A model generated the notes under the pieces. The model worked only from the letters and a program-made list of their open reading frames with translations. It was not told where the DNA came from and made no database searches. A stretch of DNA of 63,606 nt, counting the filler, from Stramenopiles sp. TOSAG23-6 (taxonomy: Eukaryota), in assembly GCA_900128565.1 (NCBI GenBank). It is 46 parts of 46 records of this genome, joined end to end, with 100 filler letters (N's around TTAATTAATTAA, not from the genome) between each part and the next. Parts side by side here need not be neighbours in the genome. Positions count along the whole stretch, not along the records: positions 56,831 to 58,107 come from LT639335.1; 45 more parts are not named here. One strand, 5' to 3'. Both the position numbers and the translations under genes were made by a program. Every line of letters starts with the position of its first letter. Position 1 is the stretch's first letter. Below are positions 51,039 to 60,836 of this stretch, one piece after another.

Positions 51039-51319
51039 CTTTCCGACCCAAGTTGAATCAATTCAATGTCAACGTCGCCATCTAAATTTTGGAATTCAAA
51101 ATTTTCCTGTAACAACGGTGCAAGCAAAAATACTCTCGAAGGTTTCTTACTATCTAATTCACCACTATGATACACTACTGAGTATGTATTTTGGAAAAAT
51201 ATTTCAAAAAAAAAAATGTNNNNNNNNNNNNNNNNNNNNNNNNNNNNNNNNNNNNNNNNNNNNTTAATTAATTAANNNNNNNNNNNNNNNNNNNNNNNNN
51301 NNNNNNNNNNNNNNNNNNN

Positions 51320-52468
51320 TTCAGGTTCAGGTTCAGGTTCAGGTTGAATTTTAACATCTTTGAGACGATTTTCCCCAAAAGGGAGCTCTCCCCCATCAAC
51401 CCGATATACAATATCTCGGTTGCCTCCGCGAAGAAGGCTTTTGTGAACGTTTTTCATTCCCGATATATACTTTTCCGCGATAATCCGAATTGGATCATAC
51501 AAGGAGGTAGACCCATCGGGATTGTCCAACAGTTGAACAAAAGCAAGTAATTGCTCAGCATTCAAAAGTTTAATATTTTCAAAAACTGTGTGAGGAATCG
51601 CATACTGAAAAGTTCTGTATCTGTTACGTCCTTCATCATCTGGAACCTGATCCCTGCTGATAACATAACGATGCCTATAATGAGTAGAACCGTGATTGTT
51701 TCCTTCAACTTGAGCGATCATTTGATCAACTTCCTTTGGGTCAACGTATCCCACAGCTTTAGGCATTTGACTAAATAAATCAAACATTTTTCCTGCTGTT
51801 GTGCTCAATTTGGCTATCTCACTTGCCTTAGTTGGATTATTTATCATGGCGATTAACACAAAATCAGGAATTTCTCGCATAGACTCTGGAACATATTTGA
51901 AATCCATAGATTCAAGAAGTGCGGCTTTTACTATGTCAGCATCATCTTTCAGCCTGTCAGATAAAACTCGAAACATACAAGACTTGATTGGACTAGACAT
52001 GAACTTGACTTTATCATCAAAAATATTCACATCACTGCAATTTTTTTTTAGGGATTCAAGATTTTCTACGAGACTGTCCGGAGCATAACTGCTTTTGGTT
52101 CTTTCTATCATAATAGAAATGACCTCATCGTGACATTGCAGGTTTTCTGGAAGTGTTTTATAGATGGATTTAGTGCAGTACAATGATGCAATAAGAACAT
52201 CTTGATCATCCCGTAAAGCTTCCGGTATATTCTGAAAGCATTCCTCTGGCGTATAGTTGTTCAGAGCATCTCTTTTCAATAACGCAATTACCACCTCTTT
52301 ATCGTTTATCAAATCACCAACGTCTTGCCATATAAACGAAGAATAGTCAACATAACCGTCACGAGTAACTTCTGCAATAACTTCATCTTTATTATGCCAG
52401 TCTATTGCTTTGGTTGTACCACAAAGCAACGCAATTGCGCTTAACATAATTAGAGCTTTAGAGATCAT
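51320..52468 (-). CDS. Signal-peptide protein with DUF4116-like repeats and (PE)n tail, copy 1
   Basis: DKEVVIAL, IPEALRDDQDVLIA, LSDRLKDDADIVKAA; hydrophobic N-terminus. Confidence 0.75.
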
Positions 52469-52531
52469 TTTCAAGTTGATCAATTTTGATATTTACTCAG
52501 TTCCTCTTCAGCAGGTAGAACTTCTACTCAC

Positions 52532-52597
52532 TCTTTCAAGCTTCTTTCAAGCTTCTTTCAAGCTTCTTTCAAGCTTCTTTCAAGCTTCTTTCAAGCT
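52532..52597 (+). repeat. 11-bp tandem repeat (CTTTCAAGCTT)n; identical at 53910-53975
   Basis: About six units running to the contig end. Confidence 0.9.
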
Positions 52598-52697
52598 NNN
52601 NNNNNNNNNNNNNNNNNNNNNNNNNNNNNNNNNNNNNNNNNTTAATTAATTAANNNNNNNNNNNNNNNNNNNNNNNNNNNNNNNNNNNNNNNNNNNN

Positions 52698-53846
52698 TTC
52701 AGGTTCAGGTTCAGGTTCAGGTTGAATTTTAACATCTTTGAGACGATTTTCCCCAAAAGGGAGCTCTCCCCCATCAACCCGATATACAATATCTCGGTTG
52801 CCTCCGCGAAGAAGGCTTTTGTGAACGTTTTTCATTCCCGATATATACTTTTCCGCGATAATCCGAATTGGATCATACAAGGAGGTAGACCCATCGGGAT
52901 TGTCCAACAGTTGAACAAAAGCAAGTAATTGCTCAGCATTCAAAAGTTTAATATTTTCAAAAACTGTGTGAGGAATCGCATACTGAAAAGTTCTGTATCT
53001 GTTACGTCCTTCATCATCTGGAACCTGATCCCTGCTGATAACATAACGATGCCTATAATGAGTAGAACCGTGATTGTTTCCTTCAACTTGAGCGATCATT
53101 TGATCAACTTCCTTTGGGTCAACGTATCCCACAGCTTTAGGCATTTGACTAAATAAATCAAACATTTTTCCTGCTGTTGTGCTCAATTTGGCTATCTCAC
53201 TTGCCTTAGTTGGATTATTTATCATGGCGATTAACACAAAATCAGGAATTTCTCGCATAGACTCTGGAACATATTTGAAATCCATAGATTCAAGAAGTGC
53301 GGCTTTTACTATGTCAGCATCATCTTTCAGCCTGTCAGATAAAACTCGAAACATACAAGACTTGATTGGACTAGACATGAACTTGACTTTATCATCAAAA
53401 ATATTCACATCACTGCAATTTTTTTTTAGGGATTCAAGATTTTCTACGAGACTGTCCGGAGCATAACTGCTTTTGGTTCTTTCTATCATAATAGAAATGA
53501 CCTCATCGTGACATTGCAGGTTTTCTGGAAGTGTTTTATAGATGGATTTAGTGCAGTACAATGATGCAATAAGAACATCTTGATCATCCCGTAAAGCTTC
53601 CGGTATATTCTGAAAGCATTCCTCTGGCGTATAGTTGTTCAGAGCATCTCTTTTCAATAACGCAATTACCACCTCTTTATCGTTTATCAAATCACCAACG
53701 TCTTGCCATATAAACGAAGAATAGTCAACATAACCGTCACGAGTAACTTCTGCAATAACTTCATCTTTATTATGCCAGTCTATTGCTTTGGTTGTACCAC
53801 AAAGCAACGCAATTGCGCTTAACATAATTAGAGCTTTAGAGATCAT
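52698..53846 (-). CDS. Identical copy 2 of the DUF4116-like gene (duplicate contig)
   Basis: Contig 52698-53975 repeats contig 51320-52597. Confidence 0.75.
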
Positions 53847-54075
53847 TTTCAAGTTGATCAATTTTGATATTTACTCAGTTCCTCTTCAGCAGGTAGAACT
53901 TCTACTCACTCTTTCAAGCTTCTTTCAAGCTTCTTTCAAGCTTCTTTCAAGCTTCTTTCAAGCTTCTTTCAAGCTNNNNNNNNNNNNNNNNNNNNNNNNN
54001 NNNNNNNNNNNNNNNNNNNTTAATTAATTAANNNNNNNNNNNNNNNNNNNNNNNNNNNNNNNNNNNNNNNNNNNN

Positions 54076-55453: not shown

Positions 55454-56730
55454 TGTATTTTTGTTTTTATTCAAAAGACGAATGATGTTTGCTTTTACAT
55501 GATAAAAATGTTTATTTATTGTTAATACTATTGTCATATTGTACAGATTATTGACAATATTTTTGTTTTTATTCAAAAGATGAATGATGTTTAGTTTTAC
55601 ATGATAAAAATGTTTATTTATTTCAAATACTATTGAAATATTGTACAGATTATTTAAAGTATTTTTGTTTTTATTCAAACAATGAATGATAGTTACTTTT
55701 ACATGATAATATATTTATTTATTTCAAATACTATTGACATATTGAACAGATTATTGTTTGTATTTTTGTTTTTATTCAAAAGACGAATGATGTTTGCTTT
55801 AGAATGATAAAAATGTGTATTTATTTTAAATACTATTGGCAAATTGTACACATTATTGGCAGTATTTTTGTTTTTATTCAAAAGATGAATCATGTTTGCT
55901 TTAGAATGATAAAAATGTTTATTTTCTTTCAAATACTCTTGACATATTGTACAGATTATTTAAAGTATTTTTGTTTTTATTCAACAAATGAATGATTTTT
56001 TCTTTTATATGATGAAAATGTTGTTTTATTTCAAACACTATTGATATATTGTACACATTATTTGCAGTATTTTTGTTTTTATTCAAAAGGTGAATGATGT
56101 TTGCGTTTACATGATAAAAAGTTATTTATTTTGCAAATGCTATTGACATGTTGTACAGATTATTTCATGTATTTTTGTTCAAATTCAAAAGATGAATAAT
56201 GTTTCTTTTAGAATGATAAGAATGTGTATTTATATCAAATACTCTTGGCATATTGTACACAATATTGTTGGTATTTTTGTTTTTATTCAAAAGATGAATN
56301 ATGTTTGCTTTTACATGATAAAACTATTTATTTATTTTGTAAACTATTGACATATTCTATAGATTATTGGGTGTATTTTTGTTTTTATTCAAAAGATGAA
56401 TGATGTTTTCTTTTACATGATAAAAATGTATATTTATTTTAAATACTATTGACATATTGTACAGATTTTTTGGTGTATTTTTGTTTTTATTCAAACAATG
56501 AGTGATGTTTGCTTTTACATGATAAAAATTTGTATTTATTTCAAATACTATCGGGATATTGTACACATTATTGAAGATATTTTTGATTTTATTCAAACAA
56601 TAAATGATGTTTGCTTTTACATGATAAAAATGTATATTTATTTCAAATACTATTTACATATTATACATATTATTAAAAGTATTTTTGTTTTTATTCAAAA
56701 GATGAATGATGTTTGCTTTTACATGATAAA
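55454..56730 (-). repeat. 102-bp tandem repeat array filling the whole contig (~12.5 units)
   Basis: ACATGATAA recurs at 55497, 55599, 55701…; reverse complement of the 14670-15236 family. Confidence 0.95.
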
Positions 56731-56900
56731 NNNNNNNNNNNNNNNNNNNNNNNNNNNNNNNNNNNNNNNNNNNNTTAATTAATTAANNNNNNNNNNNNNN
56801 NNNNNNNNNNNNNNNNNNNNNNNNNNNNNNTTTTTTCGTACGAAATTTTGTACCTAACAATTTTTTTTTTTTTTTTTTTAAATATTTTTCTTAAATACAT

Positions 56901-58041
56901 ATTTCATGTTGCTGATCATGTTATATATGACTGGTGGAAAGATGAGGGGCGAGCTACACAAAGAGCAAGAGCAATTCAATATTGGCTAAAACGAGCAACT
57001 TTGAATACTATTCTCTTGGAAAAAACAGACATTATTAATCGTACTGCGGAACAAGCAAGATGTTATGGAATTCCATTTATAGATGTGTATATTGTTTTCC
57101 CTCAAAAATTGTGTAAACTTATTTCGTACGAAATTCCGTACCTAACGATTTTTTTTTTTTTTACTAACAAAAAAAAAAAAAAAAATATTTTTTCACAATA
57201 TATTATTTCGTACGAAATTCCGTACCTAACGATTTTTTTTACTAAAAAAAAAAAAAAAAAAAAAAATATTTTTTTTTCACAATATATGATACACAGAGGT
57301 TCTCAAATTCGTGTAGAGGCCGTCATGAGTCGGATTACTAAGCGGGATGACTATATTTGTCCATCACCAACGCGTGAAGATGTTGTACGTTTTATTATTT
57401 TTTTTTTCCGGTAAAAAAAAAATCGAATTTATTTTTTTATAAAAATGTTGTACCTAACAATTTTTTTATAATTTTTTTTGAAATATTTTTCCAAAATACA
57501 TGCTCAACAACCTGCGATGGAAGCATTACCACAAATCTTGGAACCATCATCATCTAAAGGGGAACAATATTTTGTAGATCCTGTAGTTGTCCTTGATTTT
57601 CAGTCACTTTATCCATCTTTAATAATTGCATATAATTTATGTTTTTCAACGTGTTTTGGGCATCTGAATACAAATCGACTTGGTGTTTTGCCAAAGTATA
57701 CAGCTCCAAAGGATGCTCTATTGCAAGCAACAAGACAAGCACAATTGCGAAAAACGTTTATTTCAAGCACTGGTTGTTGCTTCGCGCCAAGGAAGCAACG
57801 CGAAGGAGTTTTGCCACGTATGTTACGTACGTTTTCATTATGAATTTCAAATTTATTTATTTTTTCGTACGAAATTTTGTACCTAACAAATTTCGATTTT
57901 AATTTTTTTTACAATATATGTGAAATTCTTCAAATGCGAATCGTCTTGAAGAAAGCAATGAAGGAATGTAAATTAAGTGGTGATAGTGAAGAAGCATTAG
58001 TCCTAAACGCTAGGCAGCTGGGTCTGAAACTTATTGCTAAT
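56901..58041 (+). CDS. REV3: DNA polymerase zeta catalytic subunit, partial, four exons
   Basis: [71 protein letters not shown]. Confidence 0.96.
57087..57287 (+). other. GT-AT intron with duplicated 3' module
   Basis: gat gt|GTATATTG…CACAATATAT|g ata cac aga ggt gives FIDVIHRGSQ. Confidence 0.85.
57385..57501 (+). other. GT-AT intron, no junction direct repeat
   Basis: gat gtt|GTACGTTTT…CCAAAATACAT|gct caa caa gives DV-AQQPAME; no AG in the intron. Confidence 0.92.
57827..57919 (+). other. GT-AT intron
   Basis: tta c|GTACGTTTT…ACAATATAT|gt gaa att gives PRMLR-EIL; no AG in the intron. Confidence 0.92.
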
Positions 58042-58428
58042 ATATGTTTTATTTTTTTTTTTACAAAAAAATCGAATTTATTTTTTTATAAAAATTTTGT
58101 ACCTAACNNNNNNNNNNNNNNNNNNNNNNNNNNNNNNNNNNNNNNNNNNNNTTAATTAATTAANNNNNNNNNNNNNNNNNNNNNNNNNNNNNNNNNNNNN
58201 NNNNNNNAATCAAACAATGACAGTTTGATGTCAAAAAACTAATTTTGACAGCAAGTTTAAAATTTTCAAAATTCAATTTGACTTTTCGTGGACCGCAAAA
58301 AATCGGAAGAAGACAAAATTTGGATTTCCATTCTCCTTCTTCAATCAAATCTAAATATAAATATATTAAATTGCAATGTACATTTAGTGCCCCGTTTCTA
58401 AATATTTATTTCGTCACGATACCTATAT

Positions 58429-59451: not shown

Positions 59452-59975
59452 GTATGTTTTATTTTTTTTTTAACAAAAAAATCNNNNNNNNNNNNNNNNN
59501 NNNNNNNNNNNNNNNNNNNNNNNNNNNTTAATTAATTAANNNNNNNNNNNNNNNNNNNNNNNNNNNNNNNNNNNNNNNNNNNNTGATACGCTGAACAATC
59601 CGAAAAATCAAAAACAATCTCTAGTAGAGATTGAAACATCGTCGCCTATGTGGACGACTCGATGGATGGAGGCGTGGTGGAGACCTTCAGCCTGGTATCG
59701 TAGTTGGTCTCTTTCATCATTCGATGAATTATTTATTAATGTAGAAACGGATAAAGACGTACAAACGGAACTGCGGAATAGAATCATAAAGATATTTTGT
59801 AAGGAATTTTGTACCTAACAAATNNNNNNNNNNNNNNNNNNNNNNNNNNNNNNNNNNNNNNNNNNNNNNNNNNNNNNNNNNNNNNNNNNNNNNNNNNNNN
59901 NNNNNNNNNNNNNNNNNNNNNNNNNNNNNNNNNNNNNNNNNNNNNNNNNNNNNNNNNNNNNNNNNNNNNNNNNNN

Positions 59976-60836
59976 TGATACGCTGAACAATCCGAAAAAT
60001 CAAAAACAATCTCTAGTAGAGATTGAAACATCGTCGCCTATGTGGACGACTCGATGGATGGAGGCGTGGTGGAGACCTTCAGCCTGGTATCGTAGTTGGT
60101 CTCTTTCATCATTCGATGAATTATTTATTAATGTAGAAACGGATAAAGACGTACAAACGGAACTGCGGAATAGAATCATAAAGATATTTTGTAAGGAATT
60201 TTGTACCTAACAAATTGTACCTAAGAAAAAACATTTTGAAATATTTTTCCAAAATACATGTCTTGTCATTGAAAGAATGTTTTCCCAAAAAATAATGGAG
60301 AAAAACATGGAAAATGATGAATTAAAATCGGCAGTTATGAAATGTTTACAATGTCGTGAAGATGTTTATGAAATTCGCCTTTGTTCTGGTGGCACCGGAC
60401 AACTTGCTTTTGTGCCTGATACTACGGGAACCGCATGCTTCGAAAGAACTGGTTATGCTAAAAAAAGACTCCGTAGATCTGGTAATAGCGCCGCATCTTC
60501 CATTCGACATTCACAGNNNNNNNNNNNNNNNNNTAAATGCGAATGGCTTGGAGTGACAAATGATGAGAAAGACGTATTGGATGAGGATATAGACAGTTTA
60601 TTGTACCAAAGAAAACAAAGAAATTCTGTTTCAAAATCCAGTACCTCCCCACAGAAAACTATATATAATAACAAAATTCCTCAACAAATTGATAACGACA
60701 AACGCGGTATTATTGAAACAATGTATGGCATCGGACACATTCGTGGATACAGAGATGATGGCGTTGTAATCCTAGATATCCGAGACAATGAAAATACCGA
60801 AGCTGTGTTGTATATGTCTGAAAATACAAAAAATAT
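59976..60836 (+). CDS. Hypothetical protein, two exons; short GT-AT intron at 60191-60259
   Basis: ttt t|GTAAGG…CAAAATACAT|gt ctt joins in frame to ORF 60277. Confidence 0.55.

What the first reader, a model, noticed from the sequence alone, without database searches (positions are those of the whole stretch)
57860..57890. Conserved palindrome fused to an extended branch-point-like motif
The most conserved part of the family is internal: TTTCGTACGAAA (perfect 12-bp palindrome), then TTTTGTACCTAAC, about 30-50 nt before the 3' end. A second near-palindrome, AAATATTT, lies closer to the acceptor. TACCTAAC resembles both U2 (TACTAAC) and U12 (TCCTTAAC) branch sites. Flanking T/A tracts vary freely, which suggests selection on this core. 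Inference: a strong branch element or protein-binding site allows AG-independent splicing, or it is a transposase-binding site.
Basis: partly seen in the sequence, partly recalled or inferred. Interest (0 to 1): 0.7.

Follow-up and report, generated by a model that had tools for sequence, protein, structure and literature searches.

The report
AT-ending introns with matching U1 RNA
The motif is the likely branch site of a transposon-derived intron copied thousands of times in a marine protist; these introns end in AT instead of the usual AG, and the gene for the cell's intron-finding U1 RNA has a changed front end that matches their start.

Summary
The motif is real (57863-57887). It lies in a 93-nt GT...AT intron of a DNA polymerase zeta gene (57827-57919, by homology). 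The assembly holds 7,547 exact copies of the 13-mer.

GTACCTAAC is the conserved part (45/58); the palindrome is exact in only 28/58 and in 2,179/7,547 genome-wide. Motif-defined ends keep the frame in 88/110 cases versus 36/110 for the next AG. RNA contigs from two studies skip one family intron with no AG option. The last two intron bases copy the last two exon bases (57/73, null 39): a 2-bp target-site duplication, so an introner.

No variant U2, U12, U11 or U6atac was found. The only U1 gene begins AAACGUACAUG instead of AUACUUACCUG. That is the complement of CAU|GUACGUUU, including the exon U supplied by the duplication.

Branch point and U1 expression are inferred, not shown.

The parts
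57827..57919 (+). 93-nt GT...AT family intron (GTACGTTTT...ACAATATAT) in a REV3 / DNA polymerase zeta gene; the element proper is 57827-57917
   Evidence: Best score among 578 open-frame splice choices against a profile of 120 REV3 homologs, tied only with +1/+2 slides; no AG in the 3' search range. Not tested with RNA.
57824..57834 (+). 5' splice site TAC|GTACGTTT, complementary to the variant U1 5' arm
   Evidence: 9.5 of 11 pairs with the variant U1, 7.5 with the canonical arm
57863..57874 (+). 12-bp palindrome TTTCGTACGAAA; second-tier conservation; resembles a diverged tandem copy of the next 12 nt
57879..57887 (+). GTACCTAAC, most conserved internal motif; putative branch A at 57886 (inferred)
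   Evidence: branch use not mapped
57911..57917 (+). 3' end of the element (ACAATAT; family [A/C]AATA[C/T]), a short imperfect inverted repeat of the 5' end
57918..57919 (+). AT acceptor, read as the right-hand copy of a 2-bp target-site duplication. In this copy the left-hand dinucleotide (57825-57826) is AC, so it does not match.
   Evidence: family-wide test; this copy
57385..57501 (+). 117-nt GT...AT family intron of the same gene; palindrome replaced by TTTTTATAAAAA
   Evidence: best of 231 choices, tied with 1-nt slides; no AG in range
57087..57287 (+). 201-nt GT...AT family intron with an internal 84-nt duplication (two cores, 57134 and 57218)
   Evidence: score 82.1; a +2 slide scores 83.0 and the one GT-AG option 67.5
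56831..56900 (+). 3' part of a family intron ending ...AAATACAT, cut by the contig start
   Evidence: boundary by motif only
58042..58107 (+). 5' part of a family intron starting ATATGTTTT (AT-start variant), cut by the contig end
   Evidence: boundary by motif only
56901..58041 (+). REV3 (DNA polymerase zeta) coding exons 56901-57086, 57288-57384, 57502-57826, 57920-58041

Best explanation
The motif is the internal core of a ~95-100-nt non-autonomous DNA transposon (introner), GTAYGTTTT...[A/C]AATAY, that inserted thousands of times into genes and duplicated two target bases, usually AT. The major spliceosome removes each copy plus one duplicate, which restores the gene exactly. The element supplies the GT donor and a branch site (GTACCTAAC, CUAAC pairing with normal U2). 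The right-hand duplicate serves as acceptor, hence AT and sometimes TT, GT or CT. The host U1 has three changes in its 5' arm (U2A, U5G, C9A). They pair with intron +7 U, +4 C/U and the exon -1 U that the duplication supplies. SHOWN: boundaries in 3 introns by homology and 1-2 by RNA, frame restoration, the locus-specific duplication, the U1 gene sequence. INFERRED: branch use, U1 expression and function, transposase-driven spread, and how the 3' end is chosen (probably the fixed terminal motif about 38 nt from a strong branch site, cut 2 nt after it). The palindrome is most likely inherited element sequence under weaker constraint.
For: Boundaries: (three REV3 introns). Frame kept in 88/110 with the last two bases unscored, against 36/110 for the first AG and 8-14/110 for 1-2-nt shifts. 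RNA: a 96-nt skip in runs X2 and X4 (two studies) that slides only among non-AG options; a 9-nt loose end fits a second family junction. Duplication: flanking dinucleotides identical in 112/171 (null 83.0 +/- 3.7) and 57/73 in a strict set (null 39.3 +/- 2.4, highest of 20,000 shuffles 50). Of 16 non-AT ends 12 copy the exon; 0 of 25 non-AT left flanks match as reverse complement. 5' and 3' variants are linked (z 6-7.6), and copies in different loci are near-identical. U1: AAACGUACAUG at G000:C1146:349, in a U5-U2-U1-U4 cluster on a contig that also carries a family intron. No canonical U1 arm was found by the pattern. Anchored only on GTAYG plus core, exon -1 is T in 159/184 (G in 5) and +7 is T in 170/184. 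The variant arm pairs better in 73/73, mean duplex -10.0 against -1.8 kcal/mol (that set was selected on GTAYGTTT).
Against: No matching transposase: only one family was searched (PF13359), and its two distinct loci have other ends. The inverted repeat is short and imperfect (terminal pair 109/171). 13 of 25 non-AT left flanks do not match the intron end, this copy among them. RNA support is thin: of 5 family introns on the stretch, 1 full joint (depth about 3, sides 38-40 nt, laid at 88% likeness), 1 loose end and 3 unsupported; intron cores were abundant in one RNA run, which may mean retention, DNA or collapsed repeats. A crude gene model with a prior favouring AG placed 68 of 101 family introns at in-frame GT-AG ends, so AG alternatives often exist; at the one RNA-tested intron its call (99 nt) was wrong (RNA: 96 nt). 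22/110 introns fail the frame test. U1 scores 54.1 bits, below the Rfam cut-off of 69.5, and both protein-binding loops differ from consensus; its expression is untested. U2 pairs worse with GTACCTAAC (-2.8) than with TACTAAC (-5.0), and the invariant extra C is unexplained.
Confidence: 0.72

Rival explanations
1. Spliceosomal GT-AT introns as above, but not spread by a DNA transposase. Copies arose by reverse splicing or another RNA-based route, and the shared motifs, palindrome included, are kept by splicing factors.
For: No autonomous partner found. Copies lie almost only in the sense direction: 62 sense/sense against 3 degenerate antisense/antisense of 222 classed, in a noisy classification. 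The inverted repeat is weak. A non-family Rab7 intron also needs a GT...AT boundary.
Against: The locus-specific 2-bp duplication is the test that PMC9860276 uses for DNA-type introners (passages). Reverse splicing is not expected to copy exon bases into the intron end (inference). Sense bias is also expected from selection in a gene-dense genome.
Confidence: 0.13
2. The palindrome (with the following 12-mer, a near-tandem pair) is a subterminal transposase-binding site, and the CTAAC was co-opted as branch site. This is compatible with the best explanation and differs only in the role of the palindrome.
For: Perfect dyad at a fixed place in a DNA-transposon-like element. The common alternative TTTTTATAAAAA is also a dyad. 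A short copy of the core lies inside a PIF/Harbinger element.
Against: The commonest variants break the symmetry (G5A, C8G). The Harbinger element has different ends and a TAA duplication, and one core copy per 3 kb is expected by chance.
Confidence: 0.25
3. The introns are a transformed U12-type class handled by a divergent minor spliceosome, as in Physarum.
For: Long conserved 5' and branch motifs; some AT starts (11/195 AT-AT); loose terminal dinucleotides.
Against: The 5' consensus is GTAYGTTT, not RTATCCTT (U12 consensus recalled). The branch-to-end distance is about 38 nt. No U11, U12 or U6atac found. The major U1 is complementary to the donor.
Confidence: 0.05
4. Spliceosome-independent excision guided by pairing of the two ends, as proposed for euglenid nonconventional introns.
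For: The ends are complementary; the first five end pairs form with p>0.5 in 33/73 ensembles.
Against: 40/73 do not pair; this copy's ends are unpaired in the predicted fold. GT donor, CTAAC and U1 complementarity are all present.
Confidence: 0.05

Closest known systems
Non-canonical introns of Fritillaria borealis / F. pellucida (PMC13326754: abstract, section 21, discussion part 1; review PMC11282704 parts 1-3 of 5)
   Same: Transposon-derived, major spliceosome, 3' AT frequent (34% and 44%), the intron's last bases echo the bases before the donor (YAY), and canonical introns persist as a minority.
   Different: There the donors are mostly AG, the two U1 versions have identical 5' ends and no dedicated U1 evolved, and adaptation is through U2AF paralogs and m6A. 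Here GT is kept, the duplication is 2 bp, there is a long invariant branch motif, and the U1 arm itself has changed.
Introners of the Chrysochromulina / Micromonas IE1 type (PMC9860276 passages; PMC11282704)
   Same: The element carries the 5' splice site and co-opts the 3' site from the target-site duplication; no net change in the mRNA.
   Different: Duplications there are 3-4 bp and, in the Micromonas example, supply AG; here 2 bp supply AT, TT, GT or CT.
Co-evolved U1 arms of Entamoeba (ACAAAC) and Mastigamoeba (ACGUAC) (bioRxiv 10.1101/2022.06.08.495308, passages)
   Same: The U1 5' arm changed to complement the genome's donor consensus. The ACGUAC core is the same as in Mastigamoeba, and an A for +7 pairing occurs in Entamoeba.
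   Different: The passages seen report intronic positions only. Here the base facing exon -1 (C9 to A) changed too and matches a transposon target site.
ISL2EU transposons (PMC4482050, passages)
   Same: 2-bp AT target-site duplication.
   Different: ISL2EU ends begin GG, its target is A|AT|T, and it was found only in animals. Here the ends begin GTA and the target tends to Y|AT|R.

Membership tests
Introner (DNA-transposon-derived intron family) | Many similar introns in unrelated genes | tested here: met
   7,547 exact cores; near-identical pairs in different loci; linked 5'/3' variants
Introner (DNA-transposon-derived intron family) | Locus-specific target-site duplication | tested here: met
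   112/171 against 83; 57/73 against 39.3, and 12/16 non-AT ends copy the exon; no excess at -3 (58/171 against 58.2), so 2 bp
Introner (DNA-transposon-derived intron family) | Terminal inverted repeats | tested here: inconclusive
   GTAT-G-TTT / AAATAY: four pairs at 109, 159, 137 and 98 of 171, then a bulge; short and imperfect
Introner (DNA-transposon-derived intron family) | Precise removal from mRNA | tested here: met
   1 full joint in two studies and 1 loose end, of 5 family introns laid; frame 88/110
Introner (DNA-transposon-derived intron family) | Lineage-specific positions or presence/absence alleles | not testable with these tools
   No related genomes are held; two metagenome scans for related U1 genes were empty
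Introner (DNA-transposon-derived intron family) | Autonomous partner with the same ends | tested here: inconclusive
   Only PF13359 searched; its loci have other ends
U2-type (major) intron | GT donor complementary to U1 | tested here: met
   GT in 170 or so of 195 (154 GT-AT); complementary to the variant U1
U2-type (major) intron | YUNAY branch site pairing with U2 GUAGUA | tested here: inconclusive
   CTAAC present and U2 canonical, duplex only -2.8 kcal/mol; no lariat data
U2-type (major) intron | AG acceptor | tested here: not met
   Strict set: AT 57, TT 9, GT 3, CT 1, AG 1, AA 1, AC 1 of 73
U12-type (minor) intron | RTATCCTT donor and a branch site close to the 3' end (recalled consensus) | tested here: not met
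   GTAYGTTTT; median 38 nt
U12-type (minor) intron | U11, U12, U6atac present | tested here: inconclusive
   No match in an incomplete assembly; U4atac not searched
ISL2EU transposon | AT duplication in A|AT|T context | tested here: not met
   AT preferred, but flanks are C/T and G/A; definition from PMC4482050
ISL2EU transposon | Ends beginning GG | tested here: not met
   Ends begin GTA
Euglenid/diplonemid nonconventional intron | No base pairing with U1 | tested here: not met
   Mean 9.8 of 11 pairs with this genome's U1; definition from PMC12621601 passages
Euglenid/diplonemid nonconventional intron | Stable structure joining the ends | tested here: inconclusive
   33/73; not in this copy
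U1 snRNA (RF00003) | Full-length four-helix structure with Sm site | tested here: met
   Model positions 1-166, E 7.5e-12, 54.1 bits (below the 69.5 cut-off), Sm site AAUUUUUUGUAG
U1 snRNA (RF00003) | Expressed and in a snRNP | not testable with these tools

The most novel reading that the evidence does not exclude
A transposon invasion rewrote the host's splicing code. The only U1 was retuned to pair with the transposon end and with the exon base created by its target duplication, giving up the ancestral exon -1 G pairing. The major spliceosome also dropped the AG check altogether, choosing the 3' end by branch site plus terminal motif, possibly without U2AF35. Even non-family introns can then end in AT.
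Probability: 0.4. Interest if true: 0.9.

Novelty: new variant of a known kind. Interest (0 to 1): 0.76.

Why it matters
The AG acceptor and the U1 5' arm are among the most conserved features of splicing. How spliceosomes come to accept transposon-made introns is an open question. In Fritillaria U1 did not adapt (PMC13326754), in Amoebophrya it is reported absent (review PMC11282704), and in diplonemids with many noncanonical introns it does not match them (PMC12621601). Here three U1 changes line up with the element's donor and its target-site base. That gives a directly testable case of host-transposon co-adaptation, by U1 swaps on reporters. The thousands of natural AT/TT/GT/CT acceptors also test how the second splicing step reads the 3' end. 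Gene finders that assume AG will mis-annotate this lineage.

Tried and rejected
Rfam scan of the window: nothing. Variant U2: one exact locus (duplicated contig); the 2-mismatch hit is not U2-like downstream and the 3-mismatch hits are at control level. U2AF35: not found by PF00642 (15 hits, the zinc fingers of 10 loci read), PF16131 or three recalled degenerate motifs. The motif hits read were an out-of-frame match in an unrelated gene, an intron on the other strand, or chance: 1 of 16 hits read for, 20 of 38. SF1: PF16275 none; the PF22675 hit is a multi-KH protein of a type common in oomycetes. RBM22/Cwc2 was not seen either, so these absences may only reflect an incomplete assembly and are not used as evidence. 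The U2AF65-like gene has two RRM1-type domains and F in place of the usual W motif, but three unnamed relatives share the double RRM1 and one shares the motif, so it is not specific. Prp8: 78 substitutions at near-invariant columns, but the KKLTNAQRSGLNQIPNRRF stretch equals human; no link to AG loss could be drawn. Hairpin GUACGA/UUGUAC: no compensatory change. PIF/Harbinger and a second DDE_Tnp_4 locus rejected as parents. Ab initio intron census: 101 family against 54 other gaps among 155 of 214 passing filters; many of the 54 are false and the boundaries are prior-driven, so it is used only to say the family is the majority. Two metagenome scans for related U1 genes were empty.

Full report
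Setting. The window is a chain of ~1.3-kb contigs, joined by spacers, from a 21.1-Mb, 6,236-contig eukaryotic assembly with some duplicated contigs. In a FastTree Prp8 tree (67 of 72 chosen hits kept, of 120 returned) the protein is sister to an unnamed EukProt sequence (0.999), in a clade of unnamed sequences next to oomycetes and Tribonema, with weak deep support. This fits a stramenopile. The label 'MAST-3-type' comes from an earlier scan note and was not tested. RNA holders are seawater metatranscriptomes.

Observation. Both motifs are at the stated place and far above chance. The assembly has 7,547 exact 13-mers, 2,179 of them with the perfect palindrome. To avoid circularity I picked 58 elements by their ends only (reversed-sequence control 0). 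Exact GTACCTAAC was in 45/58, the exact palindrome in 28/58, TACTAAC in 0/58 and AAATATTT in 43/58. The palindrome's C and G positions were kept in 67-79%, TACCTAA in 95-98%. The branch half is the conserved core; the palindrome is second tier and shows no clear compensatory change.

What the motif sits in. The contig 56831-58107 encodes part of REV3. Scoring all open-frame splice choices against a profile of 120 homologs gave 57827-57919 (GT...AT, 93 nt) as best, tied only with slides through repeated bases, with no AG in range. 57385-57501 behaved the same. For 57087-57287 the GT...AT choice scored 82.1, a +2 slide 83.0 and the one GT-AG option 67.5. A catalogue from about 0.9 Mb of fetched DNA (overlapping loci included) gave both ends for 195 of 357 unique hits: median length 98 nt, consensus [C/T]AT|GTAYGTTTT ... 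TTTTGTACCTAAC ... TTTT(Y)CAMAATAYAT|G, 154 GT-AT (ends were scored, so partly circular). With the last two bases unscored, removal kept the independently called frame in 88 of 110 testable cases (110 of 172 passed filters). The first AG after the branch did so in 36, and 1-2-nt shifts in 8-14.

RNA. I laid four runs (assembled contigs) on a 7.3-kb stretch of G000:C100 with five family introns. One intron, in a gene that looks like urocanate hydratase (my reading of the translation), is skipped by 96 nt in runs X2 and X4 of two studies. The 5-nt slide includes GT...AT and no AG end. A second is supported by a contig that stops at the exon end with a 9-nt loose end matching the next exon. Three had no support. 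A canonical 124-nt GT-AG Rab2 intron was also skipped. Depth is about 3, and the eight other joints link intron copies and are repeat artefacts. The intron of the finding itself was not tested with RNA. Canonical GT-AG introns persist in Rab2-, Rab5- and Rab18-like genes. A non-family intron in the Rab7-like gene must end without AG, since an in-frame stop lies just before the VGKT codons with no AG between (paralog names are my reading). A crude gene model found 101 family and 54 other gaps. With a prior favouring AG it put 68 of the 101 at in-frame GT-AG ends, and it was wrong at the RNA-tested intron (99 against 96 nt). In-frame AG alternatives therefore often exist, and only deep RNA data can exclude their use.

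Origin. The intron's last two bases copy the exon's last two: 112/171 against 83.0 +/- 3.7 (which includes mis-called ends). In a strict set it is 57/73 against 39.3 +/- 2.4; 12 of 16 non-AT ends (TT, GT, CT, AA) match their own exon, and none of 25 non-AT left flanks matches as reverse complement. Position -3 shows no excess, so the duplication is 2 bp. This is the locus-specific test described in PMC9860276 (passages). Against it, 13 of 25 non-AT left flanks do not match, including this copy (AC against AT); 12 of those 13 have AT on the right, which suggests drift of the exon or selection toward AT. Inside the duplication the ends form a short imperfect inverted repeat, and 5' and 3' variants are linked as subfamilies. 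No parent was found: a full PIF/Harbinger element has GGCCG ends and a TAA duplication, and a second DDE locus has no matching ends. ISL2EU shares an AT duplication but fails two other features.

Machinery. U5, U2, U1 and U4 lie in a 640-bp cluster on G000:C1146, U6 on C3740; both contigs carry family cores. U2 keeps GUAGUA, U5 its loop and U6 ACAGAGA. No second U2, U11, U12 or U6atac was found. U1 begins AAACGUACAUGG where the Rfam consensus has AUACUUACCUGG, and the pattern found no canonical arm. The three changes face intron +7, intron +4 and exon -1. Anchoring only on GTAYG and the core, exon -1 is T in 159/184 (G in 5), +7 is T in 170/184 and +8 T in 164/184; +4 is T or C in 185/195. The variant arm is the exact complement of CAU|GUACGUUU and pairs better than the canonical arm in 73/73 (set selected on GTAYGTTT). 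Caveats: 54.1 bits is under the Rfam cut-off, the two protein-binding loops differ, expression is untested, and without relatives (empty) cause and order are unknown. U2AF35 and SF1 were not found, but neither was RBM22, so no loss is claimed.

Mechanism. The element inserts at NT (mostly AT) and duplicates it. U1 reads exon YAU plus GUAYGUUU. U2 pairs with CUAAC (4 bp, or 7 with the extra C bulged; inferred). The second step cuts two bases after the terminal [A/C]AATAY, about 38 nt from the branch A, and 70 of 73 strict ends finish in T. One duplicate leaves with the intron, so the mRNA is restored. Why TACCTAAC never relaxes to the better-pairing TACTAAC is unexplained; it may mark a protein site or a DNA-level constraint.

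Prior art. Closest are the Fritillaria introns (section 21, discussion part 1, abstract), Chrysochromulina/Micromonas introners and the co-evolved U1 of Entamoeba and Mastigamoeba (passages). PMC12621601, PMC12130899, PMC4482050 and PMC8624252 were seen as passages; PMC11282704 as parts 1-3 of 5; PMC7789003 and PMC7505975 only as listings. Searches showed no paper on GT-AT introners in a stramenopile or on a U1 change at the exon -1 position. The library lacks most subscription journals, and no supplements were read; the introner datasets could list this family. Earlier notes of this scan, read after my own tests, already describe the GT-AT family, the duplication and the weak case for the hairpin on other pieces of this genome. 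None matched a U1 query for this genome, though variant U1 arms were noted in other genomes.

Verdict. A real feature: the branch-site core of a GT-AT introner family. The palindrome alone is modest. The system, with its matching U1, is a new variant of a known kind and of high interest.

Noticed in passing
L001:9-645 (G000:C1146): U5, U2, U1 and U4 snRNA genes lie head to tail within 640 bp. U1's two protein-binding loops differ from consensus (GGUCAAUAUG, UGAUCAC).
   Followed up: partly
L003:953-1056 (-) (G000:C3740): U6 reads GGAUAAUAUACAGAGA where the consensus has GGAACGAUACAGAGA; AAUAUAC could pair with GUAUGUU in a shifted register.
   Followed up: partly
L093 about 1400-2200 (-) (G000:C370): The Rab7-like intron after the GDSG codons is GTATGTTAC...AAACCAT, a non-AG end without the family core.
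   Followed up: partly
G000:C2432 about 500-3610 (L179, L183, L184; also C2433, C2439, C2440): Full-length PIF/Harbinger-type element: DDE_Tnp_4 ORF, a convergent second ORF, 27-bp inverted ends starting GGCCG, TAA duplication. A short copy of the intron core lies between the two ORFs.
   Followed up: partly
L073:664-2628 (-) (G000:C433): U2AF65-like protein with two RRM1-type domains and KSNFT in place of the tryptophan motif; the double RRM1 also occurs in three unnamed proteins.
   Followed up: partly
L042:3085-9150 (-) (G000:C84): Prp8 has no intron in this 2,021-codon frame and carries 78 substitutions at near-invariant columns, with clusters near residues 899-910, 995-1041 and 1385-1411 of the ORF.
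   Followed up: partly
window 57087-57287, 28794/28861, 32689/32749, 27855/27924: Several introns hold two cores in tandem (internal duplication or assembly artefact).
   Followed up: no
L104 near 1470 (-), L024 near 7317, L025 near 3428: Family members whose start reads GAACGTTTT or GCACGTTTT, so +2 also varies (GA, GC starts).
   Followed up: partly
window 4888-4996 (-): A family-like intron in a UBA5-like gene ends ...ACAATATAG, one of the few AG-ending members.
   Followed up: no
window about 55454-56730: AT-rich tandem satellite with a unit of roughly 117 bp.
   Followed up: no
window 51276-52597 and 52654-53975; 59584-59823 and 59976-60215: Duplicated contigs or segments; the assembly holds redundant copies.
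   Followed up: no
window 46543 and 46858 (+): Two repeated degenerate cores (TTTTTGTATGAAATTTTGTACGTAAG) without family ends, in apparently non-coding repeats.
   Followed up: no
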